In this document: piece after piece, positions 2,312 through 13,025 of the stretch
Layout: each line of letters opens with the position of its first letter
Position numbering within the stretch: the stretch's first letter is position 1
IMG/VR virus record: IMGVR_UViG_3300039368_000086
Coordinates: 1 to 13,305 of that record
Source: a virus
Taxonomy: Duplodnaviria > Heunggongvirae > Uroviricota > Caudoviricetes
Direction: 5' to 3' (one strand)
Length of the DNA stretch: 13,305 nucleotides
Program-made: the position numbers and the translations under genes
The notes under the pieces: generated by a model
What the model was told of the DNA's origin: nothing
Seen by the model: the letters and a program-made list of their open reading frames with translations, nothing else
The model's database searches: none

Positions 2312-2491
2312 ATGAAAAACGCATTGCAGTTTTTGTTTGTTGCGTTCTGGTTGTTCGCATCATGTATGCCCATCATCTTCACAGCAAGGTATATGGAAAA
2401 AGTTGATGTTTTGATATTAATGTTTGGACATATAAATGCCCTTTTTTTAGGGGTGTTCATGGCGGTCATGTGCATTGAATACTGGCGGTAA
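2312..2491 (+). CDS. Small hydrophobic (membrane) protein, about 59 aa
   Basis: ATG at 2312 preceded by AGGGGGAA; sequence MKNALQFLFVAFWLFASCMPIIF... is predicted two-TM-like; an alternative GTG start at 2273 exists. Confidence 0.35.
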   Translation: MKNALQFLFVAFWLFASCMPIIFTARYMEKVDVLILMFGHINALFLGVFMAVMCIEYWR

Positions 2492-2750
2492 ATACAGCGA
2501 ACGCCATTGGTTTAGTTGGATATTTACTGTGCCGGACAAAAACGGTTTGCGGGGAAATCTTAGTTAAGTAGAATGACTGCGGGTGCTTGAGGCTATCTGT
2601 CTCAGGCATGAACACTGAAAGGCAGATAGAGAAAAGCCCCAGTTAACATTTCGCGTCCTGCAAGACGCTTAACATTAATCTGAGGCCCAATCTATGTCTC
2701 ACAAATGTAGGTTAGCCTCTTACGTGCCGAAAGGCAAGGGGAAGCAGGCT

Positions 2751-2906
2751 ATGAAGCAGCAAAAGGCGATGTTAATCGCCCTGATCGTCATCTGTTTAAC
2801 CGTCATTGTGACGGCACTGGTAACGAGGAAAGACCTCTGCGAGGTACGAATCCGAACCGGCCAGACGGAGGTCGCTGTCTTCACAGCTTACGAACCTGAG
2901 GAGTAA
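2751..2906 (+). CDS. hokD: Hok/Gef-family membrane toxin (HokD/RelF-like, 51 aa)
   Basis: Translation MKQQKAMLIALIVICLTVIVTALVTRKDLCEVRIRTGQTEVAVFTAYEPEE matches my recollection of HokD/RelF; an in-frame upstream extension (2694) of 70 codons has mok-like length; structured leader upstream and a 3' hairpin at 2914-2936. Confidence 0.85.
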   Translation: MKQQKAMLIALIVICLTVIVTALVTRKDLCEVRIRTGQTEVAVFTAYEPEE

Positions 2907-2975
2907 GAGACCCGGCGGGGGAGTAATCTCCCGCCACCTCTGATGTGCCAGGCATCCTCAACGCACCCGCACTTA

Positions 2976-2995
2976 ACCCGCTTCGGCGGGTTTTT
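2976..2995 (+). terminator. Rho-independent terminator (CCCGC-TTCG-GCGGG + T5)
   Basis: Perfect 5-bp GC stem with TTCG loop followed by TTTTT, seen directly in the sequence downstream of hok. Confidence 0.6.
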
Positions 2996-3007
2996 GCATT
3001 AGTCTGG

Positions 3008-3036
3008 TTGACAAAAATAGAAAAATGCGAAAATAT
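3008..3036 (+). promoter_or_regulatory. Candidate sigma70 promoter for the 3072-4806 cassette (TTGACA -35, 17-nt spacer, weak AAATAT -10)
   Basis: Consensus TTGACA at 3008-3013; the -10 matches only 3/6, so this is tentative. Confidence 0.3.
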
Positions 3037-3071
3037 GTGGTTTACGAATTCTAAAAAAAGCGAAACTTGAA

Positions 3072-3722
3072 ATGAATGAAAATCAGTTAGCTCCTTGTTG
3101 GGAATTTCAACCTTATCTTGCTGAAAACTATGTTCGCCACTTGTTGGCGGAGATCGCTAACGTACTTGAGCAGCTGTACTATCATAAGCACGCATTAGAC
3201 AGCAACTGGTCTGAAGGTGTAAGGGCTTATGATTGGGTCAGAAATCATCTTATTCAAAATGAAGATGCAATTCCTGGCCTTGAGATGATTTCCAAGGGGT
3301 TGGACTATGTAGTTGCTTTAAATAAAGTTCCGCTACAATTTACCAAAGATTGCATTAATAACCCCAAAAAGAAACATCGTCTGCGTCGAAATAAAGTAGA
3401 GTATGAGCAGCTCTCATTGTTTGGTGATGTTGAGGCTGAGCAAGATATTACATGGCGAGTCATAGCTGAGCCTTTTTTATCCGAAGAGGGCGATGGTGAA
3501 TTAGAGTCCACACTGCCTCGTTGGGAGGTAGCTCTTGTTGGATTTAATACTTATGGTGCTCAGATTAGTATAGTTTCTCATCAATCTACAGCATCGATGC
3601 CGCTTATGCCTCTTGATTATAACACACTCCCTGACGAAGCGGAGATTAATAAGGTGCCTCTTCGTCGGCGTACGAAGGATAAAGATTTGGATGTGAGCAG
3701 TGATGGAACATCAGGTGAATAA
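3072..3722 (+). CDS. Hypothetical protein (216 aa), upstream partner of the HTH-peptidase; no family recognised
   Basis: Long ORF in an AT-rich segment, translationally coupled (about 20-nt overlap) to the downstream gene; weak ribosome-binding site. Confidence 0.65.
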   Translation: MNENQLAPCWEFQPYLAENYVRHLLAEIANVLEQLYYHKHALDSNWSEGVRAYDWVRNHLIQNEDAIPGLEMISKGLDYVVALNKVPLQFTKDCINNPKKKHRLRRNKVEYEQLSLFGDVEAEQDITWRVIAEPFLSEEGDGELESTLPRWEVALVGFNTYGAQISIVSHQSTASMPLMPLDYNTLPDEAEINKVPLRRRTKDKDLDVSSDGTSGE

Positions 3723-4806
3723 CTTCACTGAGTATCGGGGTGATAAGCTCAAACTAGCGAGAATGGCTGTTGGGCTTTCTTGTGAAGAGTTAGCCGAAAA
3801 AATTGGCAAGACAAAGCAATTCGTTAGCAAACTGGAGAAGGGGTGCAGGCCATCGGAGCAATGTCTTGAGTTAATATCTTCAGCGCTTATGATTAAGTCC
3901 AGTTTTCTTTTTACTGAACGAAAATACGCTCTGGAAAGTGATGTCTGCCATTTTCGGAGTAAGAAGTCCAGGACTCAAACGCTGACTAATAGTGTATTGG
4001 CCAGGGCTGAGATTCTTAATATTATAATTTCTGCTGTTGAAGGTGAAATCGAATTTCCTGACGTTAACATACCGGAGCACCCAGGGGCTGAATTACTTAC
4101 TCCGAATGATATTGAGCGAGTGGCAGAAGATTGTCGCCGTGCCTGGAATTTAGGTCTTGGCCCTATATCATCAATGGTTAAATTGGCGGAGAGTTTAGGG
4201 GTAATCGTTGCGCATGTTACGGGAGTCGATGATCGTGTTGATGCTTTTACTGTTCACAATAACAGGCCTGTTATCATCAGGAACAATGTTAAAAAAAGCA
4301 TATGTAGATTTCGCTCTGATTTAGGTCATGAATTAGGGCATTTAGTAATGCATGAGGGCATAACGACAGGTGATAAACTTACGGAATCACAAGCCGATCA
4401 CTTTTCGAGCGCCTTATTAGTTCCCAGGTTATCTTTCATTAAAGAATTTCCACGAATACGAGGTAAGCAATTCGACTGGAATGCTCTGGTTGAATTTAAA
4501 CTTAGATGGAAAATCAGCCTTAAAATGTGTATTTATCGAGCCAGCGCATTAGGCTTATTGACCCAGGAACAGGCAAGAACTGGCTATATGCATCTTAATT
4601 CCAGAGGGTATACGAGAGTTGAACCTGGTGATGAACTTTTGCGCCCTGAAGAACCCGGCATGCTGGCCGAGGCGATTGAAATGCTGGATGATGCAACCTG
4701 GCTAAGAATTCTTATGAAAACTGGCTTGAGCCAAGATTTAATTCGTGAGTTGTTCTCCATCAACAGACCTATTACAAATCCAAGAAATATTTTCCAGATT
4801 GTTTGA
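3703..4806 (+). CDS. HTH_XRE DNA-binding domain fused to ImmA/IrrE-family (M78, COG2856) zinc metallopeptidase
   Basis: N-terminal helix-turn-helix signature (LKLARMAVGLSCEELAEKIGKTKQFVSKLEKG); HEXXH zinc-binding motif in DLGHELGHLVMHEG; 367 aa. Confidence 0.85.
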   Translation: MEHQVNNFTEYRGDKLKLARMAVGLSCEELAEKIGKTKQFVSKLEKGCRPSEQCLELISSALMIKSSFLFTERKYALESDVCHFRSKKSRTQTLTNSVLARAEILNIIISAVEGEIEFPDVNIPEHPGAELLTPNDIERVAEDCRRAWNLGLGPISSMVKLAESLGVIVAHVTGVDDRVDAFTVHNNRPVIIRNNVKKSICRFRSDLGHELGHLVMHEGITTGDKLTESQADHFSSALLVPRLSFIKEFPRIRGKQFDWNALVEFKLRWKISLKMCIYRASALGLLTQEQARTGYMHLNSRGYTRVEPGDELLRPEEPGMLAEAIEMLDDATWLRILMKTGLSQDLIRELFSINRPITNPRNIFQIV

Positions 4807-4810
4807 GTAT

Positions 4811-4831
4811 ACCCGCTTCGGCGGGTTTTTT
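4811..4831 (+). terminator. Rho-independent terminator, near-identical copy of the one at 2976-2995
   Basis: ACCCGCTTCGGCGGGTTTTTT; a 20-nt core is shared with the terminator after hok. Confidence 0.65.
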
Positions 4832-4915: not shown

Positions 4916-5137
4916 ATGGACCCCGAACAGGGGGAGTGCTATTTATCTGGAAGGATTCTGTTGATGAAAATCGAAGAATTACGTGAAATTTTTAGTGAAG
5001 ATGGCCTCTATGCTGTGCGCGTTGAGAATGGGGGTATTACCTACACAGCGTTAATTCCTGATGATCATGTAGTGTTATCTGTTGAGGCATTCATTGAATA
5101 CTTGGAAAGACTCGGTTTCAAGGTAGTTCGGGAATAA
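4916..5137 (+). CDS. Hypothetical small protein (73 aa; alternative start 4966)
   Basis: Strong ribosome-binding site before 4916; no recognisable motif. Confidence 0.45.
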   Translation: MDPEQGECYLSGRILLMKIEELREIFSEDGLYAVRVENGGITYTALIPDDHVVLSVEAFIEYLERLGFKVVRE

Positions 5138-5470: not shown

Positions 5471-6517
5471 GTGCGGGTATTACTTCGACCTGTTCTGGTA
5501 CCGGAACTCGGGCTGGTGATCGTTAAGCCGGGCCGTGAATCCATGCCGGTATTCCACAATACCCGGGTACTGGTGGAGCCGGAACCGAAAAGCATGCGTA
5601 ATCTGCCGTCCGGGGTCGTTCCTGCCGTTCGCCAGCCGCTGGCGGAGGATAAATCATTACTGCCATTTTTCAGCGACGAACGAGTGATTCGTGCTGCTGG
5701 TGGCGCTGGCGCATTGTCTGATTGGTTACTGCGCCATGTTAAATCCTGCCAGTGGCCACACGGCGATTATCACCACAGTGAAACCGTCATTCACCGTTAT
5801 GGTACCGGCGCAATGGTGTTGTGCTGGCACTGCGACAACCAGCTGCGCGACCAGACCTCCGAATCACTCGGGCAACTTGCTCACCAAAACCTGTCTGCAT
5901 GGATGATTGACGTCATACGCCATGCAATGAATGGCTCGCAGGAACGGGAATTATCGCTGGCTGAATTATCCTGGTGGGCGGTCCGCAATCAGGTGGCGGA
6001 CGCGCTACCGGAAGCGGTATTACGTCGTTCGCTGGGGTTGCGTGCGGAAAAAATCCGCTCAATGTACCGTGAAAGCGACATCGTACCGGGAGAGCAGACC
6101 GCCACCAGCATACTGAAGCAGCGCACAAAAAATCTTGCGCCGCTGCCTCACGCCCACCAGCAAAACCCGCCACAGGAAGAGACGGTGGTCAGCATTGCCG
6201 TTGATCCTGAGTCTCCGGAATCTTTCATGAAACGACCTAAACGTCGCCGCTGGGTTAACGAGAAATACACACGCTGGGTGAAGACACAGCCGTGTGCGTG
6301 TTGTGGTAAGCCAGCCGACGATCCCCATCACCTGATTGGTCATGGTCAGGGCGGAATGGGGACAAAATCTCACGATATTTTCACGCTACCGCTGTGTCGG
6401 GAGCATCACAACGAGCTTCATGCGGATCCTCTGGCGTTCGAAGAAAAGCATGGTTCTCAGGTTGATTTAATTTTTCGTTTTCTTGATCACGCCTTTGCAA
6501 CTGGCGTGCTTGGGTAA
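5471..6517 (+). CDS. DUF968-family (YdfU-like) phage protein with C-terminal HNH/zinc-finger-like motif
   Basis: GTG start with GGAGG ribosome-binding site; C-terminal CACCGK...DPHHLIGHGQGG...CREHHNELH motif; 348 aa, close to the size of Qin prophage YdfU; located just upstream of rusA/Q. Confidence 0.75.
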   Translation: MRVLLRPVLVPELGLVIVKPGRESMPVFHNTRVLVEPEPKSMRNLPSGVVPAVRQPLAEDKSLLPFFSDERVIRAAGGAGALSDWLLRHVKSCQWPHGDYHHSETVIHRYGTGAMVLCWHCDNQLRDQTSESLGQLAHQNLSAWMIDVIRHAMNGSQERELSLAELSWWAVRNQVADALPEAVLRRSLGLRAEKIRSMYRESDIVPGEQTATSILKQRTKNLAPLPHAHQQNPPQEETVVSIAVDPESPESFMKRPKRRRWVNEKYTRWVKTQPCACCGKPADDPHHLIGHGQGGMGTKSHDIFTLPLCREHHNELHADPLAFEEKHGSQVDLIFRFLDHAFATGVLG

Positions 6518-6529
6518 AAGAGGTGACTG

Positions 6530-6889
6530 ATGCTCATAGATTTGGTTTTACCTTACCCGCCGACGGTGAACACTTACTGGCGACGCCGTGGCAGCACATA
6601 TTTTATCTCGGAGGAGGGAAAGCGTTATCGCCGGGCTGTGGCGCTTATTGTTCGCCAGCAGCGGCTGAAATTAAGCCTGTCCGGAAGGCTGGCGATAAAG
6701 GTGATTGCAGAGCCACCGGATAAGCGCCGCCGCGACCTGGACAATATCCTGAAGGCACCACTGGATGCGCTGACGCATGCCGGACTACTTATAGACGACG
6801 AGCAGTTTGATGAAATCAATATTGTGCGCGGTCAGCTCGTTCCTGGTGGGCGGCTGGGGATAAAAATCACAGAACTGGAGTGCGCATGA
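6530..6889 (+). CDS. rusA: Crossover junction endodeoxyribonuclease RusA (Holliday junction resolvase)
   Basis: 119 aa; conserved PDKRRRDLDN and GGRLGIKITE motifs matching the RusA family; canonical position before Q. Confidence 0.9.
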   Translation: MLIDLVLPYPPTVNTYWRRRGSTYFISEEGKRYRRAVALIVRQQRLKLSLSGRLAIKVIAEPPDKRRRDLDNILKAPLDALTHAGLLIDDEQFDEINIVRGQLVPGGRLGIKITELECA

Positions 6890-7575
6890 ATAACCAGTAT
6901 TTACAGTTTGTGCGTGAGCAGCTCATTATCGCCACCGCTGATTTGAGTGGGGCAACAAAAGGTCAGCTTGAAGCCTGGCAGGAGAATGCCATGTTCGATA
7001 CAGGGCGTTACAGGCGTAAAAAAATCCGGTACCGCGATGAAGTGACCGGAAAAATGATAACGCGGGATAATCCACCAATCCCGGGAAAACAATCGCTGGC
7101 GAAGGGGACGTCAATTCCTCTGGTCAGTCAGGTTGCTTTTTCTACATCATCATGGCGGCGGGCTGTTTTGTCTCTTGAAGAACATCATAAAGCCTGGTTG
7201 TTGTGGTGTTACAGCGGAAATACTTGCTGGGAGTATCAGATCGCGATAACGCAGTGGGCATGGACAGAATTTAAGACTCACTCTGGTACCAGGAAAATTG
7301 CAGGGAAGACACAGGAACGCCTGAAAAAATTAATCTGGCTGGCTGCACAGGATGTCAGGAGATGGGTTATAGGACATGATATCTACCAGCAACAGGAGCT
7401 TGCCCGTCTGTGTGGGATTAAGCCTGACAACTGGAGCCACAATTATGTGAGCTACTGGCGTGAAATACTCGACATTTTTATGAACCTCGATACCGAATCT
7501 CTGATTTGCACTGTGAAAAGGAGATCTCAACAAAAAGCGGCATTTTTGCAGCGAGATATTGCAAAAGTCAATTAG
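6886..7575 (+). CDS. Late-gene antitermination protein Q (phage 21/82/Qin-type Q family)
   Basis: ATGA overlap with the rusA stop; 229 aa; immediately followed by a PR'-like promoter and a short-transcript terminator. Family assignment is mainly positional. Confidence 0.7.
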   Translation: MNNQYLQFVREQLIIATADLSGATKGQLEAWQENAMFDTGRYRRKKIRYRDEVTGKMITRDNPPIPGKQSLAKGTSIPLVSQVAFSTSSWRRAVLSLEEHHKAWLLWCYSGNTCWEYQIAITQWAWTEFKTHSGTRKIAGKTQERLKKLIWLAAQDVRRWVIGHDIYQQQELARLCGIKPDNWSHNYVSYWREILDIFMNLDTESLICTVKRRSQQKAAFLQRDIAKVN

Positions 7576-7623: not shown

Positions 7624-7648
7624 ACCCGCTCAAATGTGCGGGTTTTTT
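7624..7648 (+). terminator. tR'-like rho-independent terminator (CCCGC ... GCGGG + T6)
   Basis: 5-bp GC stem, 8-nt loop, TTTTTT tract; position right after Q. Confidence 0.6.
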
Positions 7649-7721
7649 GCTTAACTCTGTGGACCTTTTTATCTGTAGTTGTAATATATGGATATTGTTA
7701 CAATTTAGGTCGGTGAGCTTA

Positions 7722-8486
7722 ATGGAAGAACAGCACGGTAATTACTTTATAAAACGAATTCAGTTGATTGGAAGAGGGGCATTTGGCTTTGTTGAACACG
7801 TTAAGGTTTACAACCTCAATAAAGGTGAATGCGGGGATTATGCTAGAAAGGTTTTAGCACCCGAAAAACCAGAGCTTTTGGCGCAAATAGAGCAGTTTAG
7901 AAGGCGTTTTAAAAGGGAGGTTGTGTATCAATCACATTGCGTACATAGCAATATTGTTCCTATTTATTTGTGCGATTTGTTTGTTGAGAATCCATGGTTC
8001 ATTATGGATAAAGCAGAATGTGATCTTGAGCACGAAATAACGAACAACCTTCTTACAACAGATCAAAAAATTTCAATAGTGAAAATGGTATTAGATGGTG
8101 TAGCTTACATCCATGCCAAAGGCTATTTACACAGAGATATAAAACCCTTTAATGTTTTGCGATTTAGCGACGGAACATACAAGGTGTCTGATTTTGGTCT
8201 GGTAAAAGATACGAATCCCGAAGGGGATACCACTAAATTGACCGAGATCGGTACCCGTATGGGAAGTACAAGATATATGGCTCCCGAGATTTTATATAAT
8301 GCAGAGTATTCAGTTAAGACTGATGTTTATGCTGTGGGACGGTTAATTGAAGACTTAAATTTAGATGATAAAAAAATAAAGCCTATCATAGCTAAGTGCA
8401 CAAGGATGGATAAAGATGATAGATATCAGACAATAGATGATGTGGCGTTTGATTTTGCGCATTCTTTTTTAAGGAGTGAGTCATGA
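7722..8486 (+). CDS. Hanks-type (eukaryotic-like) Ser/Thr protein kinase, minimal kinase domain only (254 aa)
   Basis: Full motif set: glycine loop IGRGAFGFV, ARK lysine, catalytic loop HRDIKPFN, DFG (VSDFGLVK), APE (YMAPE), DVYAVG; GGTGAG ribosome-binding site before ATG 7722. Confidence 0.85.
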   Translation: MEEQHGNYFIKRIQLIGRGAFGFVEHVKVYNLNKGECGDYARKVLAPEKPELLAQIEQFRRRFKREVVYQSHCVHSNIVPIYLCDLFVENPWFIMDKAECDLEHEITNNLLTTDQKISIVKMVLDGVAYIHAKGYLHRDIKPFNVLRFSDGTYKVSDFGLVKDTNPEGDTTKLTEIGTRMGSTRYMAPEILYNAEYSVKTDVYAVGRLIEDLNLDDKKIKPIIAKCTRMDKDDRYQTIDDVAFDFAHSFLRSES

Positions 8487-9226
8487 TTCAGCTGATAGCG
8501 ACTTCATCATTCTCGTATCCAAAAGAACCAGGTAGGGTCAACGAAGATTCATTGCTTCCTCCAAAAATTGTAGGAGACGGCATCTTATTTGCCGTAGCTG
8601 ATGGTGTAGGTTCATACTCTGGTGCCAGTTATGCTTCATCCATGGCAATCGCTGAACTTTCAGCATTGACAAGTTTATCTTTTGATGCAGTTCCGAATGT
8701 ATTTGCTGAAGTTAAGCGAAAAGTTATGTCGTTAGCTGAAGTTAATGATGAGTTCGATAAAGCTGCTACTACACTTACCTTTTGTTATGTTTGTGATAGC
8801 GGAATTATTATTGGTCATATTGGTGATTGTCGCTTGTATTGCATTGGAGAAAAGAAAGCATATCAATTGACGAAGGACGATACCAGACATCAGATGTTAA
8901 TTGATCAGAATATTTTTAAACCCAGAGATTTGAAGAATAAACCGGGAAAAAATATCTTAACGACTGCCATAGCCTCAAATGTTGATATGGAATACGACTG
9001 TGATTTTATCCCGTGGAAAGATTTGCCTGGTATTAACGGGTTGTATCATCTGTGTATCATGTCTGATGGAGTTCATAACGTTTGGGAAAAACGCCCCAGA
9101 TTTACATCAAATACTATGAGTAATAGTCAGAAGTTTTCTAATGGTATTTTGCGTCGTATAGAGAGAGCCGGACCTGATGATGACTTTTCTTTAGTAAGTA
9201 TAATGGTGCGTGTGACGTCAGATTAG
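8483..9226 (+). CDS. PP2C-family (PPM) Ser/Thr protein phosphatase (247 aa)
   Basis: Motifs RVNEDS, FAVADGVGS, IGDCRLY, MSDGVHN, GPDDDFSLV; AAGGAG ribosome-binding site; ATGA overlap with the kinase stop (translational coupling). Confidence 0.8.
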   Translation: MIQLIATSSFSYPKEPGRVNEDSLLPPKIVGDGILFAVADGVGSYSGASYASSMAIAELSALTSLSFDAVPNVFAEVKRKVMSLAEVNDEFDKAATTLTFCYVCDSGIIIGHIGDCRLYCIGEKKAYQLTKDDTRHQMLIDQNIFKPRDLKNKPGKNILTTAIASNVDMEYDCDFIPWKDLPGINGLYHLCIMSDGVHNVWEKRPRFTSNTMSNSQKFSNGILRRIERAGPDDDFSLVSIMVRVTSD

Positions 9227-9295
9227 TTGTATAAACCCAGTAGGGAATGCTAATTTCCCATACTACAGAGTAAAGAAAAACTTAATTTTAATGTG

Positions 9296-9322
9296 AAAAG
9301 GCTGCTATCAGGCGGCCTTTTT
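9296..9322 (+). terminator. Rho-independent terminator after the kinase/phosphatase cassette
   Basis: AAAAGGCTGC-TATCAG-GCGGCCTTTTT: 6-bp stem with one G-U pair, flanked by A4 and T5. Confidence 0.5.
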
Positions 9323-9336
9323 ATGTCTGAAAAGCT

Positions 9337-9663
9337 GTGCAGTACGTTAAACACGCTTGTGGTTGTGAATGCCGACTGCGGCGGTATTTTGGCGTGACAG
9401 CGCAGGTGCCGTATACCGATGTCTGGACGCATAAACCGGTGCAGTTCTATCCCGGGAAACATCCGTGCGAAAAACCGGCAGAAATGCTGCAGCAGATAAT
9501 CAGCGCAAGCAGTCGTCCGGGAGACCTGGTTGCAGATTTTTTTATGGGCTCAGGTTCAACGGTAAAAGCGGCACTGGCGCTCGGGCGTCGTGCGATTGGC
9601 GTTGAACTGGAGACCGGACGTTTTGAGCAGACAGTCAGGGAAGTTCAGGATTTAATCGTTTGA
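9337..9663 (+). pseudogene. C-terminal fragment of an N6-adenine/N4-cytosine DNA methyltransferase (5'-truncated)
   Basis: Contains HPCEKP (H-P-x-x-K-P) and the FFMGSGST AdoMet-binding motif, but no DPPY catalytic motif and only a GTG start abutting a terminator. Confidence 0.55.
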
Positions 9664-9712
9664 AACGGATGAGATTGCAGAATTAATTACGCACCATTAT
9701 TATTCTGCTTCC

Positions 9713-9788
9713 GGCCCTTTAGCTCAGTGGTGAGAGCGAGCGACTCATAATCGCCAGGTCGCTGGTTCAAATCCAGCAAGGGCCACCA
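9713..9788 (+). tRNA. ileZ: tRNA-Ile2 (anticodon CAU, lysidine type; ileZ-like)
   Basis: Hand-folded cloverleaf: acceptor GGCCCTT/AAGGGCC, D-stem GCTC/GAGC, anticodon loop CTCATAA, T-arm GCTGG-TTCAAAT-CCAGC, 3' ACCA; close to E. coli ileX. Confidence 0.8.
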
Positions 9789-9795
9789 TCACATA

Positions 9796-9872
9796 CCGCC
9801 ATTAGCTCATCAGGAAAGAGCGCCAGCCTTCGAAGCTGGTTGCGCGGAGTTCGGGTCCCCGAAGGCGGTCCA
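9796..9872 (+). tRNA. argN: tRNA-Arg-like (anticodon UCG as read; argN-like) with one mismatch each in acceptor and T stems
   Basis: Anticodon stem CCAGC/GCTGG with loop CTTCGAA; T-loop TTCGGGT; 3' TCCA; imperfect stems make functionality uncertain. Confidence 0.55.
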
Positions 9873-9885
9873 TTATCTGTATCCT

Positions 9886-9962
9886 GCGTTGTTAGCTCAG
9901 CCGGACAGAGCAATTGCCTTCTAAGCAATCGGTCACTGGTTCGAATCCAGTACAACGCGCCA
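9886..9962 (+). tRNA. argO: tRNA-Arg (anticodon UCU, reads AGA; argO/argU-like)
   Basis: Acceptor GCGTTGT/ACAACGC, anticodon loop CTTCTAA, T-arm ACTGG-TTCGAAT-CCAGT, 3' GCCA. Confidence 0.85.
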
Positions 9963-9977
9963 CACTTATTTTCCCTG

Positions 9978-10001
9978 GCTCGCTTTTGCGGGCTTTTTTT
10001 T
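9978..10001 (+). terminator. Rho-independent terminator ending the tRNA cluster (GCTCGC-TTTT-GCGGGC + T8)
   Basis: Read directly from the sequence. Confidence 0.55.
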
Positions 10002-10196
10002 AAATGTCTCACAATTCAGGCGGTTGACTGTTGTCTGGTTTGCGGGGAGTTTGTTAAAAGAAACTGGCATGGTGAATCCCCCTGTGCGGAGGGGCAATCA
10101 GCGAGTAGGTATATGGGATAATCGCGGATTCAGGTGTTGGTACTGAATTCACCGGGAGGCACCCGGCACCATGCAATGGCACATAGCGCCACTCTC

Positions 10197-10226
10197 CAGC
10201 CCCTCTCCGGAGGGGCTGTTTATATT
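10197..10226 (+). terminator. Rho-independent terminator-like hairpin (CAGCCCCTC-TCCG-GAGGGGCTG followed by T-rich tract)
   Basis: 9-bp perfect stem; the T-tract is interrupted (TTTATATTGATTTT). Confidence 0.45.
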
Positions 10227-10249
10227 GATTTTGTCAGATGTGAGTAAAC

Positions 10250-10283
10250 TCCTTATGGACTTTGTTGTTTTAGTCCATAAGGA
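10250..10283. repeat. Perfect 12-bp inverted repeat (TCCTTATGGACT ... AGTCCATAAGGA) with 10-nt loop
   Basis: Every base pair checked by hand; no U-tract on either strand; overlaps the stop codon of the minus-strand ORF. Confidence 0.7.
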
Positions 10284-10588
10284 CATATTTGCAGAGTGCA
10301 ACGGTTATTAAAGCATTCATTCAATACGTTATCTGTATTTGTAGGGCATTCCTGGCTGTTTTTGATTAAATTCCAGAATGTTTTATTGAATGGTACTACG
10401 TTGTAAATGGTTACAGGTAGCACTTTGTTATTGAGCATGATACCTGTGTGAGTCAGTGTAAATATACTTTCAGGAGGTAAGAAAGCATCCGATTGATACC
10501 AGATTATTAATTTTACTTTACTCCATATGACTGAAAAAGATATTCCGCATGATGGCTGGATAACTGTATCAATCACAATCCACTTCAT
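10253..10588 (-). CDS. Hypothetical Cys/Trp-rich protein (111 aa) in an AT-rich segment; only minus-strand gene candidate in the window
   Basis: ORF with AGGAA 7 nt upstream of its ATG on the minus strand; AT-rich (foreign-looking) context; no recognised motif; could be spurious. Confidence 0.3.
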
Positions 10589-11037: not shown

Positions 11038-11280
11038 TACTACGTCATCGTACTGGCCCGGCATTCCAGGCCATAAAAGACGGTCTGGCAGTGGGACTAA
11101 ATGCACTGACGCTGACGGATATTACCAAAAATGCAACGTATGGCGTTGAGATAGAAAGTCTGGTGCTGGAGATAAATGCACCGGCATCATCATAAAAAGT
11201 GAGCCAGTCAAATGGAAGGTATCGTTAAACTCACCGGTAGTGTCAGTGGGTCGTCTGAGACGCCTGCATGAGTTATCAGA

Positions 11281-11310
11281 GCCATCAGTACTTAACTGGT
11301 GGCTTTTTTA
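11281..11310 (+). terminator. Terminator-like hairpin upstream of the holin (GCCATCAG-TACTTAA-CTGGTGGC + TTTTTTATT)
   Basis: 8-bp stem with one G-U pair followed by a T-tract. Confidence 0.4.
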
Positions 11311-11344
11311 TTGTTGTCAGCTTCCGGATAACGGGAGACGGGGT

Positions 11345-11560
11345 ATGTACCAGATGGAAAAAATCACAACAGGTGTGTCATACACCACGTCAGCGGTGGG
11401 AACGGGCTACTGGTTCCTGCAGTTGCTGGACAGGGTTTCCCCGTCTCAGTGGGCGGCAATAGGCGTGCTGGGGAGTCTGCTGTTTGGGCTGCTGACATAT
11501 CTGACTAACCTGTATTTCAAAATCAAAGAGGACCGGCGTAAGGCGGCGCGGGGAGAGTAA
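11345..11560 (+). CDS. Phage-21-type class II holin (pinholin, S21/EssD family) with dual-start motif (MYQM)
   Basis: Translation ...[51 protein letters not shown] matches S21/EssD as I recall them; GGGAGACGGGG ribosome-binding site. Confidence 0.85.
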
Positions 11561-11564
11561 AGTG

Positions 11565-12455
11565 ATGAATAAAAAATATGAACTGGTTGTTAAGGGGATA
11601 AATAATTACGGGGATAAGGTTACTGTTACTGTGAAGCCGGAAGGTGACGGGCAAGCGTCGCTGTTGTTGCCAGATGTGGCGATTAGTCTTGACCGTACTG
11701 AAGGTGCCACGCTGGAGTTTTACGAAGCTGAGGCGAAAAAGCAGGCGAAGCAGTTTTTCATGGATGTTGCTGCCGGGTTATGTGAAGGGGATGGTCCGTT
11801 GCCGGAAAAGCGCCCCGTAATTTTAGAGGCGCAGGATGTGTTGATAACCTACAAAGGAAAGCTACCGGGAAGAATTACTTGTTCTCTGAAGATGCCGCCG
11901 TCAACACTGCGGTCAGAAAAAGATGATGTTGAATCACGTATTGAAAAACTGGAGAGCTACGTCGTTGAGCTGAATAAGAAATGGTCGATATTGGTGCCTT
12001 CTGGCGATGAAAAGCAGTTTGCTGCGTTTGACGATTATTGTCGGAAAGTGATGAGCAGAAATCTCGCAGAGTGTTTCAGTATTCATAATGATAATTTCAG
12101 TGACCCGGAATGGGAGTGTAACCGGCCATCCTTTGTTGTATCCGGTGATGCTGGGAAAATAACCATCTCAGAAAATGGGAAAGTAACACCTCCATCGCAC
12201 CAGCACAGTGAGGAGCTCATTGAATTTGCCATTGATTACCTGAAGAACAATAAAAAGCAGGGGCTGATGAAGCGCGTTGGCCGTTGCATGGGATATCTGC
12301 AGGTAGCTGCTGAGATTGAAGCGCTGGCCAGTGGTGCTGATAAGGATGCAATTGTGCGGGAGGCTCTTCTTCGTGATTTTAATACTCCACCCTTTAAAAA
12401 AGTGCCGGCTTACTGGCTTCATCCGGGGCTGACTTATCTTAAAGTGCGTATTTAG
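11565..12455 (+). CDS. Hypothetical protein (296 aa) inserted between holin and endolysin; no family recognised
   Basis: ATG at 11565 lies 7 nt after GGGAGAG, which overlaps the holin stop; long ORF with protein-like composition; no signal peptide or TM segment seen. Confidence 0.7.
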   Translation: MNKKYELVVKGINNYGDKVTVTVKPEGDGQASLLLPDVAISLDRTEGATLEFYEAEAKKQAKQFFMDVAAGLCEGDGPLPEKRPVILEAQDVLITYKGKLPGRITCSLKMPPSTLRSEKDDVESRIEKLESYVVELNKKWSILVPSGDEKQFAAFDDYCRKVMSRNLAECFSIHNDNFSDPEWECNRPSFVVSGDAGKITISENGKVTPPSHQHSEELIEFAIDYLKNNKKQGLMKRVGRCMGYLQVAAEIEALASGADKDAIVREALLRDFNTPPFKKVPAYWLHPGLTYLKVRI

Positions 12456-12491
12456 TGGGCCAGGGACAGCGGCTGAATATTTAATATATCC

Positions 12492-13025
12492 ATGAACACC
12501 AAAATCAAATACGGCCTGTCGGCTGCCGTTCTGGCGCTGATTGCCGCTGGTGCGCCTGCGCCTGACATTCTCGACCAGTTTCTGGATGAAAAGGAAGGCA
12601 AGCACACCACAGCATACCGTGATGGTGCGGGTATCTGGACCATCTGCCGAGGTGCCATCATGGTGGATGGTAAGCCTGTGATTCCTGGCATGAAGCTGTC
12701 GAAGGAAAAATGCGACTGGGTTAACACTATCGAACGGGATAAGGCGCTGGCGTGGGTGGAGAAAAACATCAGAGTGCCACTGACCGAACCCCAGAAAGCG
12801 GGGATCGCGTCATTCTGTCCGTACAACATTGGTCCCGGTAAGTGTTTCCCGTCGACGTTTTACAGACGAATTAATGCTGGTGATCGAAAAGGTGCCTGCG
12901 AAGCGATTCGCTGGTGGATTAAGGACGGTGGCAGAGACTGCCGTATTCGTTCAAACAACTGTTACGGTCAAGTATCCCGTCGTGACCAGGAGAGCGCGCT
13001 GGCGTGCTGGGGTATCGACAGATAA
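12492..13025 (+). CDS. SAR-endolysin (phage-21 R-type lysozyme, T4-lysozyme/GH24 fold)
   Basis: N-terminal signal-arrest-release-like segment GLSAAVLALIAAGAPAP; catalytic-region pattern E...D...T (EKEGKHTTAYRDGAGIWTICRG) similar to R21/P1 Lyz. Confidence 0.8.
   Translation: MNTKIKYGLSAAVLALIAAGAPAPDILDQFLDEKEGKHTTAYRDGAGIWTICRGAIMVDGKPVIPGMKLSKEKCDWVNTIERDKALAWVEKNIRVPLTEPQKAGIASFCPYNIGPGKCFPSTFYRRINAGDRKGACEAIRWWIKDGGRDCRIRSNNCYGQVSRRDQESALACWGIDR

What the first reader, a model, noticed from the sequence alone, without database searches (positions are those of the whole stretch)
2560..2995. HokD/RelF-like toxin without an upstream relBE, with an in-frame mok-like extension and structured leader
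The toxin peptide matches HokD as I recall it, but the upstream gene is a small membrane protein rather than relE. A 70-codon in-frame extension starts at 2694, and the leader (2580-2700) contains inverted repeats such as CTATCTG/CAGATAG, as expected for hok mRNA folding and Sok-antisense control. Whether a Sok RNA and promoter exist on the minus strand cannot be decided by eye. A potentially active hok locus next to an inserted cassette is relevant for prophage maintenance.
Basis: partly seen in the sequence, partly recalled or inferred. Interest (0 to 1): 0.45.

Follow-up and report, generated by a model that had tools for sequence, protein, structure and literature searches.

The report
Intact prophage hok/mok/sok toxin-antitoxin module

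Summary
Window 2547-2997 holds a complete type I toxin-antitoxin module of the hok/sok family. The 51-aa toxin (2751-2906) is identical to E. coli K-12 HokD. Unlike K-12, the locus keeps the whole 5' leader: the 70-codon in-frame mok ORF (2694-2906), the tac, ucb, SDmok and dcb boxes, the 3' fbi box that pairs with the 5' end, and an antisense Sok gene on the minus strand (about 2702 to 2632). The Sok -10 hexamer is the element mutated in the published sokW promoter-less construct. Rfam RF01794 scores 120.5 bits and Pfam HOK_GEF gives 3e-23. At least 80% of the 511-bp query is present in 3819 of 5426 complete E. coli genomes. Phage 933W/Sp5 carries a 92%-identical copy annotated mokW/hokW/sokW and shown experimentally to be a working TA that aids lysis on induction. 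The literature already states that the 70-codon, relBE-less form is ancestral. Verdict: observation confirmed, interpretation supported (the maintenance role is unproven), already known, low interest. In passing: the neighbouring cassette is a RosmerTA defence pair, flanked by a 20-bp duplication of the hok terminator. In related prophages, four other unrelated cargos sit between hok and a copy of that terminator.

The parts
2547..2574 (+). Inferred hok promoter: -35 TTGCGG (2547-2552), 16-nt spacer, -10 TAGAAT (2569-2574). The +1 is inferred at G2581.
   Evidence: Read from the sequence. Across 102 distinct related modules the -10 is conserved (mean 4% differ from the window) while the spacer varies (35%). 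The consensus scan did not report it, because the -35 matches only 3 of 6. The +1 is placed by Rfam model position 1 and by collinearity with the R1-type 5' end GGCGCTT, whose numbering fits G4/C5/T6 and A70 in PMC9841398.
2581..2592 (+). tac (translational activator) box GGGUGCUUGAGG at the 5' end of the hok mRNA.
   Evidence: It pairs with fbi in the full-length fold (duplex -21.5 kcal/mol). It pairs with ucb in the fold of the 3'-truncated RNA. It is nearly invariant in 102 related modules.
2593..2629 (+).
   Evidence: Six of its 13 pairs show changes on both sides among related modules, and 91.5% of cells remain paired.
2634..2642 (+). ucb / anti-SD box AAGCCCCAG.
   Evidence: It pairs with SDmok in the centroid of the full-length RNA, which is the closed form. 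It pairs with tac in the truncated RNA, which is the open form. It is positionally equivalent to A70-G71-C72 of R1. It is nearly invariant.
2632..2702 (-). Predicted Sok antisense RNA, about 71 nt. It has a 14-nt single-stranded 5' tail complementary to 2689-2702 (covering the mok start codon), then a long hairpin and a U-tail.
   Evidence: Its limits were transferred from the sokW misc_RNA annotated in 933W. The fold is -28.1 kcal/mol with z = -4.9, and 97% of hairpin cells are paired across related modules. sokW RNA of the 92%-identical locus was detected by Northern blot. Expression from this window has not been tested.
2709..2737 (-). Sok promoter: -35 TTGCCT (2737-2732), 17-nt spacer, -10 TAACCT (2714-2709).
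   Evidence: It is identical to 933W. Primer YO-421 of PMC8621323 replaces this -10 in the 'pro-less' construct that lost antitoxin activity. It is collinear with the R1-type TTGCGC-17-TATCCT. The -10 is nearly invariant in related modules. The -35 lies inside the search anchor, so its invariance says nothing. The consensus scan did not report it.
2682..2685 (+). Shine-Dalgarno of mok (GAGG), 8 nt before the mok ATG.
   Evidence: It is nearly invariant. The same GAGG is the mok SD in R1.
2694..2906 (+). mok ORF of 70 codons, in frame with hok and ending at the same stop codon.
   Evidence: This exact 70-aa sequence is on record on at least 1000 contigs. An in-frame ATG with no stop is present in 167 of 168 related modules. 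The first codons vary freely, and in a P1-like plasmid relative mok is in another frame. That fits a role through translation rather than through its own peptide sequence.
2682..2719 (+). Sok-target hairpin of the open form. SDmok (2682-2686) pairs with dcb (2715-2719), the inner stem is 2689-2697/2705-2713, and the loop is CUCACAA (2698-2704).
   Evidence: Rfam consensus structure and the full-length MFE; 87% of cells are paired in related modules. Reading the loop as a CUCA (YUNR) U-turn is my inference from general knowledge of antisense target loops.
2751..2906 (+). hok toxin gene of 51 aa, preceded by a purine-rich SD (AAGGGGAAG, 2736-2744).
   Evidence: Pfam PF01848, 3e-23. It is 100% identical to K-12-type HokD and 47 of 51 residues match HokW, and it is the exact HOKD_ECOLI sequence. 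PHROG 251 'MokW-like host killing' scores 7.7e-33.
2914..2935 (+). GC-rich 3' stem-loop GGCGGGGGAGUAAUCUCCCGCC, the presumed 3' end of the processed, active mRNA.
   Evidence: 99.5% of cells are paired, with both one-sided and double changes. Its role as the stop for 3' exonucleases is inferred from the R1 model.
2956..2968 (+). fbi (fold-back inhibition) box CCUCAACGCACCC, which pairs with tac.
   Evidence: It is nearly invariant, and the one variable position, C2962, is the bulge. The R1-type locus has GGCGC/GCGCC where this locus has GGGUGC/GCACCC, so the helix is kept with different bases.
2975..2997 (+). Intrinsic terminator of the hok mRNA (AACCCGCUUCGGCGGGUU followed by a U-run). Bases 2976-2995 are repeated at 4811-4830.

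Best explanation
Window 2547-2997 is an intact hok/mok/sok type I toxin-antitoxin module of the HokD/HokW lineage. It sits in the nin region of a lambda-like prophage, between the replication/ead genes and DUF968-rusA-Q. The proposed mechanism is the one worked out for plasmid R1. A weak promoter makes a roughly 417-nt hok mRNA (2581-2997). In the full-length RNA the 5' tac box pairs with the 3' fbi box and ucb masks the mok ribosome-binding site, so the RNA is inert. Slow 3' trimming back to the 2914-2935 hairpin removes fbi. tac then pairs with ucb, the mok ribosome-binding site is presented in the target hairpin, and translation of mok carries ribosomes into hok. A short-lived 71-nt antisense Sok RNA (2702 to 2632, minus strand) binds the trimmed mRNA over the mok start, blocks translation and provokes RNase III cleavage. 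When Sok supply stops, the stable mRNA is translated and the 51-aa Hok peptide damages the inner membrane. What is shown here: all sequence elements are present, intact and conserved, and the predicted folds switch as the model requires. What is inferred: that both RNAs are made, that Hok is toxic from this locus, and what triggers it. The most likely biological role, by analogy with hokW-sokW of Sp5, is to speed up cell death and lysis after prophage induction. Stabilising the prophage and excluding other phages are alternatives.
For: The hok-sense strand at 2581-2756 matches Rfam RF01794 end to end (120.5 bits, gathering score 59). The same model hits the hok-sense strand of 933W hokW, an R1-type hok/sok, hokC and a P1-like plasmid hok, but not the K-12-type Qin hokD. 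Pfam HOK_GEF gives 3e-23. The peptide equals HokD. The full-length fold pairs 2581-2592 with 2956-2968 (z = -6.2), and its centroid pairs ucb with SDmok. The fold of the RNA truncated at 2938 pairs tac with ucb instead. The Sok promoter hexamers and spacing are identical to 933W and collinear with the R1 type. All primers of the Sp5 study match 933W exactly, and their promoter-less mutant replaces this same -10. The Sok fold has a free tail, a hairpin and a U-tail, with z = -4.9. In 102 distinct related modules from viral contigs, tac, ucb, SDmok, dcb/Sok -10 and fbi differ from the window at under 1% of cells on average. Spacers, loops and the first mok codons differ at 22-35%. The helices stay 87-99% paired, with double compensatory changes in the 5' hairpin, the 3' hairpin and the terminator. 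Published experiments on the 92%-identical hokW-sokW show toxicity, neutralisation by sokW, partial dependence on RNase III and Hfq, loss of sokW and appearance of HokW after induction, and a twofold lower phage yield without the locus (PMC8621323). The HokD coding sequence was toxic when expressed.
Against: Nothing was measured for this copy. The consensus promoter scan found neither promoter: P_sok matches 4/6 + 3/6 and P_hok 3/6 + 5/6. The hok SD reads AAGGGG rather than the majority AAGGAG (G2740 occurs in 12 of 102 distinct modules). That could weaken hok initiation or strengthen a ucb-GGGG pairing seen in the full-length MFE. The long-range helices are invariant within this subfamily, so covariation for them rests on one comparison with the R1 type. 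Chromosomal hok loci tested in the past did not give post-segregational killing. The genomic position differs from hokW in 933W, which lies near attR, so the trigger may differ. NCBIfam Hok models score below their curated cut-offs (48.5 bits against 73).
Confidence: 0.9

Rival explanations
1. The locus is a silent relic. It looks complete but is not expressed or not toxic, as has been suggested for the chromosomal hok loci of E. coli K-12.
For: The literature describes chromosomal hok loci as inactivated or unable to mediate post-segregational killing. Both promoters deviate from consensus and were not picked up by the scan. The minority G2740 allele lies in the hok SD.
Against: K-12 loci are inactivated by IS elements or rearrangement, and none of that is seen here. 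Every regulatory box is intact and under visibly stronger constraint than the sequence between the boxes. hok ORFs of 50-52 aa are kept in 159 of 169 related modules and the mok frame in 167 of 168. The 92%-identical Sp5 copy with the same Sok promoter is functional. The G2740 allele recurs in 47 viral contigs, so it is not a private lesion.
Confidence: 0.08
2. Only the Hok peptide matters. It acts as a phage accessory lysis (holin-like) gene expressed by read-through of early-right prophage transcription, and the antisense/leader apparatus is irrelevant in this context.
For: hok is co-oriented with all flanking nin-region genes and Q. HokW contributes to lysis independently of S and R after induction.
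Against: The leader boxes and the Sok -10 are the most conserved non-coding positions of the module, which is not expected if they were dispensable. sokW demonstrably neutralises hokW.
Confidence: 0.05
3. The Rfam 'sok' hit on the + strand means that the antitoxin RNA itself is encoded on the + strand at 2581-2756.
For: The family is named 'sok antitoxin' and the hit is on the + strand.
Against: The model is 157 nt long, begins at the hok mRNA 5' end and runs to the hok start codon. In 933W it hits the strand of hokW, whereas GenBank places sokW on the opposite strand. The published sokW probe (YO-592) has the hok-sense sequence, so it detects an antisense RNA. The model therefore describes the hok leader that contains the Sok target.
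Confidence: 0.01

Closest known systems
hokW-mokW-sokW of Stx2 phage 933W / Sakai prophage Sp5 (GenBank AF125520; Takada et al. 2021, PMC8621323)
   Same: It is 92% identical in DNA over the module. The architecture is the same, with a 70-codon in-frame mok. tac, ucb, SDmok, dcb and fbi are identical, and so are the Sok promoter hexamers. It is also carried by a prophage.
   Different: The toxin differs at 4 of 51 residues, all at the C-terminus. There are 7 differences within the 71-nt Sok, mostly in the 5' tail and target loop, so cross-regulation may be limited. The terminator after fbi is different. In 933W the locus lies near attR, not in the nin region.
hokD (relF) of the Qin cryptic prophage of E. 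coli K-12
   Same: The 51-aa toxin is identical. DNA identity is 97.7% from 2737 to 2996, including the 3' hairpin, fbi and terminator. The downstream neighbours are the same (rem-like ORF, DUF968) once the inserted cassette is removed.
   Different: In K-12 the homology starts only 14 nt before the hok ATG. relBE occupies the place of the promoter, tac, ucb, mok start and Sok gene, and RF01794 finds nothing there. The literature treats the K-12 form as the derived, truncated one.
hok/sok (parB) of plasmid R1 and IncF relatives
   Same: It has the same set and order of elements, with exactly collinear spacing from the target loop to the hok ATG. It hits the same Rfam family (87 bits for the R1 type). 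The tac/fbi and tac/ucb logic is the same.
   Different: The toxins are clearly diverged: the paper reports HokW and R1 Hok as 44% identical. Nucleotide similarity is too low for blastn. It is plasmid-borne, with a proven post-segregational killing role. The tac/fbi bases differ (GGCGC/GCGCC).
hokC (gef)/mokC/sokC chromosomal locus
   Same: It is about 78% identical in DNA. mok is in frame with 69 codons, tac is identical and fbi nearly identical. The Rfam hit scores 122 bits.
   Different: It is at a fixed chromosomal site next to dnaJ, not in a prophage, and it has a shorter leader.

Membership tests
[quoted passage not shown] | Small (about 50 aa) hydrophobic Hok/Gef toxin | tested here: met
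   Pfam PF01848 covers profile positions 1-42 of 42, at 81.6 bits against a cut-off of 22. PHROG 251 scores 7.7e-33. NCBIfam Hok models hit but below their strict cut-offs.
[quoted passage not shown] | Overlapping upstream mok reading frame with its own Shine-Dalgarno sequence | tested here: met
   ATG at 2694 with GAGG 8 nt upstream, and 70 codons ending at the hok stop. The frame is kept in 167 of 168 related modules. Translational coupling itself cannot be tested here.
[quoted passage not shown] | cis-encoded antisense Sok RNA gene with a promoter inside mok, covering the mok translation start | tested here: met
   TTGCCT-17-TAACCT at 2737-2709 (minus strand) is identical to the sokW promoter region. 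The predicted 71-nt RNA has a free tail, a hairpin and a U-tail. This is sequence-level evidence only; no transcript data exist for this copy.
[quoted passage not shown] | Conserved structure of the hok mRNA leader | tested here: met
   RF01794 matches positions 1-157 of 157 at 120.5 bits, E 1.4e-27. The same strand and extent are hit in reference loci.
[quoted passage not shown] | Long-range 5'-3' pairing (tac/fbi) in the full-length mRNA | tested here: met
   Twelve pairs with one bulge, 2581-2592 with 2956-2968, at -21.5 kcal/mol. The pairing is present in both the MFE and the centroid. The helix is retained with different bases in the R1 type.
[quoted passage not shown] | Refolding after 3' trimming: tac/ucb stem and SDmok/dcb target hairpin | tested here: met
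   The MFE of 2581-2938 pairs 2581-2588 with 2634-2640. The SDmok/dcb hairpin appears in the Rfam structure and in the full-length MFE. This is in silico only.
[quoted passage not shown] | Toxicity of Hok and its neutralisation by Sok | not testable with these tools
   Shown for the 92%-identical hokW-sokW and for the HokD coding sequence, not for this copy.
HokD (K-12 nomenclature / PGAP name) | Peptide identity with HOKD_ECOLI | tested here: met
   100% over 51 aa. It is an exact-sequence member of the cluster labelled HOKD_ECOLI. PGAP labels homologous loci hokD.
HokD (K-12 nomenclature / PGAP name) | relB-relE immediately upstream, no mok or sok (the K-12 Qin arrangement) | tested here: not met
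   Homology to the Qin arrangement begins at 2737. The upstream sequence here is the hok leader. This describes the K-12 allele and is not a requirement of the family.
Post-segregational killing / prophage-maintenance module | Loss of the element kills or arrests the cell | not testable with these tools
   No data exist. The published prophage orthologue points to a lysis-assisting role instead.
RosmerTA defence system (the neighbouring cassette, not the finding itself) | RmrT toxin gene followed by an RmrA gene (HTH plus M78 zinc peptidase) | tested here: met
   PADLOC RmrT scores 4.6e-25 for 3072-3722 and RmrA 6.2e-105 for 3700-4806. Pfam finds HTH_3 plus Peptidase_M78. Anti-phage activity was not tested.

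The most novel reading that the evidence does not exclude
The hok module may serve as the fixed left border of a cargo-exchange hotspot in lambda-like prophages. Unrelated toxin-antitoxin, defence or moron cassettes are found directly after hok, each ending in a copy of the hok terminator. They are a RosmerTA pair (this window), a Fic/Doc-family gene with a small upstream ORF, an HTH + M78-peptidase pair, a PDC-S42 candidate defence gene and a lipoprotein. The short terminator hairpin (AACCCGCTTCGGCGGGTTTT) would then act as the recombination joint, and the 14-23-bp direct repeats would be its scar. I found no description of this in the papers searched. A recent Hok survey reported no general enrichment of hok next to defence systems.
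Probability: 0.4. Interest if true: 0.35.

Novelty: already known. Interest (0 to 1): 0.12.

Why it matters
For annotation, it shows that this prophage carries a complete hok/mok/sok module, not the truncated, Sok-less hokD of K-12. Pipelines label both with the same name, 'hokD', and usually leave mok and Sok unannotated. The Rfam 'sok' hit also lies on the hok-sense strand, so its strand should not be taken as the strand of Sok. Biologically the module is expected to influence lysis timing and phage yield after induction, as hokW-sokW does. It may also affect prophage stability or exclusion of other phages. No long-standing question depends on it. The only potentially useful lead is the cassette hotspot at the hok terminator.

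Tried and rejected
- The sigma-70 consensus scan of 2400-3100 found no promoter on either strand. Both promoters were therefore placed by homology, not by the scan.
- blastn in 'distant' mode against plasmids did not reach R1 hok/sok. I fetched an R1-type locus with the R1 Hok peptide instead.
- PADLOC has no model that hits Hok, and NCBIfam Hok models score below their cut-offs.
- I looked for covariation in tac/fbi, tac/ucb and ucb/SDmok among 102 related modules. These helices are almost invariant there, so that sample gives no support either way. Only the comparison with the R1 type shows the helix kept with other bases.
- Invariance of the Sok -35 and the hok SD in that sample is an artefact of the 31-mer anchor (2729-2759) and was discarded.
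- I considered that G2740 in the hok SD might be an inactivating private mutation. I rejected this because the allele recurs in 47 viral contigs.
- I considered that sense read-through from the early-right operon after induction might silence the Sok promoter. I could not test it, and hokW has a different position and orientation in 933W, so it cannot be the general explanation.
- L050 looked like another cargo flanked by terminator copies, but it is two hok modules in tandem.
Full report
**Observation.** An ORF of 70 codons runs from 2694 to 2906, and a 51-codon ORF starts in the same frame at 2751. The 51-aa product is MKQQKAMLIALIVICLTVIVTALVTRKDLCEVRIRTGQTEVAVFTAYEPEE. It is 100% identical to HokD in a genome with the K-12 arrangement relB-relE-hokD-rem. 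It is also the exact sequence that public sources label HOKD_ECOLI. It matches Pfam HOK_GEF over the whole profile (3e-23). The ORF upstream (2312-2491, 59 aa, hydrophobic) has no family match, although its exact sequence is on record on at least 1000 contigs as 'membrane/hypothetical protein'. It is not relE. The repeat CTATCTG/CAGATAG (2593-2599 and 2623-2629) forms a hairpin in the predicted mRNA.

**Identity.** Rfam RF01794 ('sok') matches 2581-2756 on the + strand end to end, at 120.5 bits against a gathering score of 59. The strand needs care. The model is 157 nt long, starts at the hok mRNA 5' end and stops at the hok start codon, so it models the hok leader, which contains the Sok target. 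It is not the 60-70-nt Sok RNA. This was checked on reference loci. The model hits the hok-sense strand in phage 933W, where GenBank annotates sokW on the opposite strand. It also hits the hok-sense strand in an R1-type IncFII hok/sok, in hokC and in a P1-like plasmid hok. It finds nothing in the K-12-type Qin hokD locus.

**How common it is.** At least 80% of the query 2500-3010 is present in 3819 of 5426 complete E. coli genomes, with a median of two places per genome and up to nine. PGAP calls the gene hokD. In the phage collection, 79 records match. Among them 933W is 92% identical and annotates mokW, hokW and sokW. The exact 70-aa Mok-Hok sequence is on at least 1000 contigs.

**Relation to K-12 hokD.** Homology to the Qin arrangement begins at window 2737, 14 nt before the hok ATG, and runs at 97.7% to the terminator. 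In K-12, relBE occupies the place of the promoter, leader, mok start and Sok gene. The literature says the same. The K-12 hok loci other than hokB are regarded as inactivated by IS elements or rearrangement (PMC12214031). [quoted passage not shown] The window therefore carries the ancestral, complete form.

**Anatomy of the hok transcript.** Coordinates were checked.
- The inferred hok promoter is TTGCGG (2547-2552), a 16-nt spacer and TAGAAT (2569-2574), with +1 at G2581.
- tac is GGGUGCUUGAGG (2581-2592).
- The 5' hairpin spans 2593-2629.
- ucb, the anti-SD box, is AAGCCCCAG (2634-2642).
- The mok SD is GAGG (2682-2685), and the mok ATG is at 2694.
- The target hairpin has the loop CUCACAA (2698-2704), and dcb lies at 2715-2719.
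- The hok SD is at 2736-2744, and hok runs 2751-2906.
- A GC-rich 3' hairpin spans 2914-2935.
- fbi is CCUCAACGCACCC (2956-2968).
- The terminator is at 2975-2997.

**Anatomy of the Sok gene.** On the minus strand, the Sok promoter is TTGCCT (2737-2732), a 17-nt spacer and TAACCT (2714-2709). Sok RNA runs from about 2702 to 2632. The Sok limits were transferred from the 933W annotation.

**Do the RNAs behave as the R1 model requires?** PMC9841398 summarises that model. The full-length mRNA is closed by a tac/fbi stem while ucb masks the mok SD. After 3' trimming, tac pairs with ucb and the mok SD forms a stem with dcb, which permits both translation and Sok binding. The predictions for this locus match.
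- In the fold of 2581-2997 (-169 kcal/mol, z = -6.2), 2581-2592 pairs with 2956-2968, in both the MFE and the centroid. In the centroid, ucb pairs with SDmok.
- In the fold of 2581-2938, tac pairs with ucb instead.
- The tac/fbi duplex is -21.5 kcal/mol.
- The R1-type locus keeps the helix with other bases (GGCGC/GCGCC against GGGUGC/GCACCC).
- hokC has a G-U at one position, and a P1-like plasmid copy varies only at the bulged base.
- The predicted Sok folds as a 14-nt free 5' tail, a long hairpin and a U-tail (-28.1 kcal/mol, z = -4.9). The tail is complementary to 2689-2702, which includes the mok start codon.

**The Sok promoter.** The simple consensus scan reports no promoter in the region, because both promoters deviate from consensus. 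The case therefore rests on homology.
- The window's hexamers and spacing are identical to 933W.
- They are exactly collinear with TTGCGC-17-TATCCT of the R1-type locus.
- All primers of the Sp5 study match 933W exactly.
- Primer YO-421 replaces the AGGTTA (= TAACCT) hexamer in the 'pro-less' construct, which lost antitoxin activity. That study detected sokW RNA on Northern blots.

**Constraint across relatives.** I anchored on the 31-mer at 2729-2759, using both alleles of position 2740, and collected 169 modules from viral contigs. Of these, 148 covered the whole 2540-3010 span, giving 102 distinct sequences.
- Mean fraction of sequences differing from the window: tac 0.7%, ucb 0.9%, SDmok 0.6%, dcb/Sok -10 0.4%, fbi 0.8% and hok -10 4%.
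- By contrast, the values are 35% in the hok promoter spacer, 24% between SDmok and the mok ATG, 22% in the first mok codons and target loop, and 69% just past the terminator.
- The Sok -35 and the hok SD lie inside the anchor, so their invariance is uninformative.
- Helices remain 87-99% paired. Changes on both sides occur in 6 pairs of the 5' hairpin, 1 pair of the 3' hairpin and 4 pairs of the terminator.
- A hok ORF of 50-52 aa is kept in 159 of 169 modules, and an in-frame mok in 167 of 168.
- In a P1-like plasmid relative, mok lies in another frame. Together with the free variation of its first codons, this suggests that translation of mok matters rather than its peptide.

**Function.** The mechanism I commit to is the R1 mechanism described above.
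- Shown: the presence, integrity and conservation of the elements, and the predicted fold switch.
- Inferred: transcription, toxicity and the trigger.
- Lysis assistance is the best-supported role. In Sp5, hokW-sokW is a working TA. sokW disappears and HokW appears after RecA-dependent induction, growth arrest comes about 40 min earlier with the locus, and phage yield halves without it (PMC8621323).
Chromosomal hok loci did not give post-segregational killing in earlier work, as summarised in bioRxiv 10.1101/2025.08.07.668861. That preprint also reports that hok is enriched in prophages.
- Exclusion of other phages, as reported for R1 hok/sok against T4 (cited), is a third option.

**Points against, or uncertain.**
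- There are no expression data for this copy.
- Both promoters are non-consensus.
- The hok SD carries the minority allele G2740 (AAGGGG; 12 of 102 distinct modules). The allele recurs in 47 viral contigs, so it is not a private defect.
- Sok here differs from sokW at 7 positions, mostly in the tail and target loop. Cross-talk with other hok copies in a genome is therefore uncertain.
- The locus lies in the nin region, co-oriented with the early-right genes, whereas hokW lies near attR. The trigger could differ.

**Context of the window.** All of the following genes are on the + strand unless marked otherwise.
- ead/Ea22-like (404-1051)
- DUF7167 (1479-1661) and small phage ORFs
- The 59-aa membrane ORF (2312-2491)
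- The hok module
- A two-gene cassette (3072-4806)
- A rem-like ORF (4916-5137)
- DUF968 (5471-6517)
- RusA (6530-6889)
- Q (6880-7575)
- A Ser/Thr kinase (7647-8486) and a PP2C phosphatase (8483-9226)
- Three tRNAs (9713-9962)
- STnc100 (10038-10227)
- A minus-strand ORF (10253-10588); the matching region of plasmid record CP088590.1 (L004) carries a gene annotated iraM
- Holin, DUF1327 and lysozyme (11240-13025)

**The inserted cassette.** The ORFs at 3072-3722 and 3700-4806 match PADLOC RmrT (4.6e-25) and RmrA (6.2e-105). The second carries HTH_3 plus Peptidase_M78. Together they form a RosmerTA-type defence pair. The block is bounded by a perfect 20-bp direct repeat, ACCCGCTTCGGCGGGTTTTT, at 2976-2995 and 4811-4830. 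That repeat is the hok terminator. K-12-type Qin has a single copy and continues directly into the sequence that follows the second copy here. Among complete E. coli genomes, 237 carry the filled site and thousands carry the empty one.

**A possible hotspot.** In related viral contigs, the sequence directly after hok also holds other blocks that end in a copy of the terminator not preceded by fbi.
- A Fic/Doc-family gene with a small upstream ORF: 841 bp between the two terminator copies, in L130 and L137.
- An HTH plus M78-peptidase pair: 1348 bp between the copies, in L071.
- A PADLOC PDC-S42 candidate with two small membrane ORFs: about 1.6 kb, in L096. Here the first terminator copy is missing and the cargo starts right after fbi.
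- A 130-aa lipoprotein: 693 bp, in L089, L149 and L156. The first terminator copy is cut to 14 bp.

This looks like a recurrent exchange point whose joint is the hok terminator. I did not find it described in the papers searched. It is a side observation and was only partly followed up.

**Verdict.** The thing itself, an intact prophage hok/mok/sok module of the HokD/HokW lineage, is already known. It is annotated in 933W, characterised in Sp5, and explicitly described as the ancestral form of K-12 hokD. Interest is low.

Noticed in passing
window 2976-4830: The 'inserted cassette' next to hok is a RosmerTA-type defence pair: RmrT at 3072-3722 and RmrA, with HTH plus M78 peptidase, at 3700-4806. 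It is bounded by a perfect 20-bp direct repeat of the hok terminator (2976-2995 and 4811-4830). K-12 Qin and thousands of E. coli genomes have the empty site with one terminator copy; 237 of 5426 complete genomes have the filled site.
   Followed up: yes
L130/L137, L071, L096, L089/L149/L156 (viral contigs), directly 3' of their hok modules: Four other unrelated cargos sit directly after hok and end in a copy of the hok terminator not preceded by fbi. They are a Fic/Doc-family gene with a small ORF, an HTH plus M78-peptidase pair, a PADLOC PDC-S42 candidate with two membrane ORFs, and a 130-aa lipoprotein. Where both terminator copies are present, the repeat is 14-23 bp. This suggests a cargo-exchange hotspot whose joint is the terminator hairpin.
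   Followed up: partly
window 2534-2579: The left ends of homology to other prophages and plasmids cluster just upstream of the hok mRNA start, at 2534, 2538, 2557, 2561/2562 and 2578/2579 in different records. The best whole-window matches start at 2562, inside the hok promoter spacer. The module therefore behaves as a mosaic unit with varying left joints.
   Followed up: partly
window 2740: The hok Shine-Dalgarno reads AAGGGG instead of the majority AAGGAG. This G allele is the minority (12 of 102 distinct modules) but recurs in 47 viral contigs. In the full-length MFE the GGGG pairs with the CCCC of ucb.
   Followed up: partly
window 2889-2892 (A2890): Tyr47 of Hok is encoded by TAC followed by G (UACG) and is unpaired in the predicted fold. 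The literature reports low-level TadA A-to-I editing of the equivalent Tyr codon of K-12 hokD mRNA (6%), which recodes it to Cys (PMC12214031). The site is conserved here.
   Followed up: no
window 2312-2491: The upstream ORF of 59 aa, with two hydrophobic segments and a GGGGGA motif before the ATG, has no Pfam, NCBIfam, PHROG or PADLOC match. Its exact sequence is on at least 1000 contigs as 'membrane/hypothetical protein'. RefSeq leaves the homologous stretch of strain B19695 unannotated.
   Followed up: partly
window 7647-9226: A eukaryote-like Ser/Thr protein kinase (Pkinase 2e-33; PADLOC mad6 and PD-T4-6-like hits) and a PP2C phosphatase lie directly after the Q antiterminator gene.
   Followed up: no
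window 9713-10588: There are three tRNA genes: anticodon CAT (called Met by ARAGORN), Arg-TCG and Arg-TCT. They are followed by a full-length Rfam STnc100 sRNA match (10038-10227, 132 bits) and a minus-strand ORF (10253-10588, PHROG 4407). The matching region of plasmid record CP088590.1 (L004) carries a gene annotated iraM.
   Followed up: no
window 2581-2756; L001, L005, L006, L007: Rfam family RF01794, named 'sok antitoxin', matches the hok-sense strand from the mRNA 5' end to the hok start codon in every reference locus tested. Its strand must therefore not be read as the strand of Sok.
   Followed up: yes
L006 404-730 (plasmid RCS54_p) and L008: In a plasmid relative (87-89% identical), mok is one base out of register and reads in a different frame from hok. 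In the IncY copy (L008) the 3' end, including the canonical fbi, has been replaced.
   Followed up: no
L050 about 8500-10500: One viral contig carries two hok modules in tandem, 1735 bp apart. The second has a Hok that differs by I34L.
   Followed up: no
L004 (CP088590.1, 'plasmid pD17EC0246-6', 175 kb): The only 100% match to the hok module in the plasmid collection lies in a record deposited as a plasmid. Around the match, that record carries a lambdoid prophage-like block with integrase, excisionase, replication genes, Q and lysis genes. It may be a phage-plasmid, an integrated prophage or an assembly artefact.
   Followed up: no
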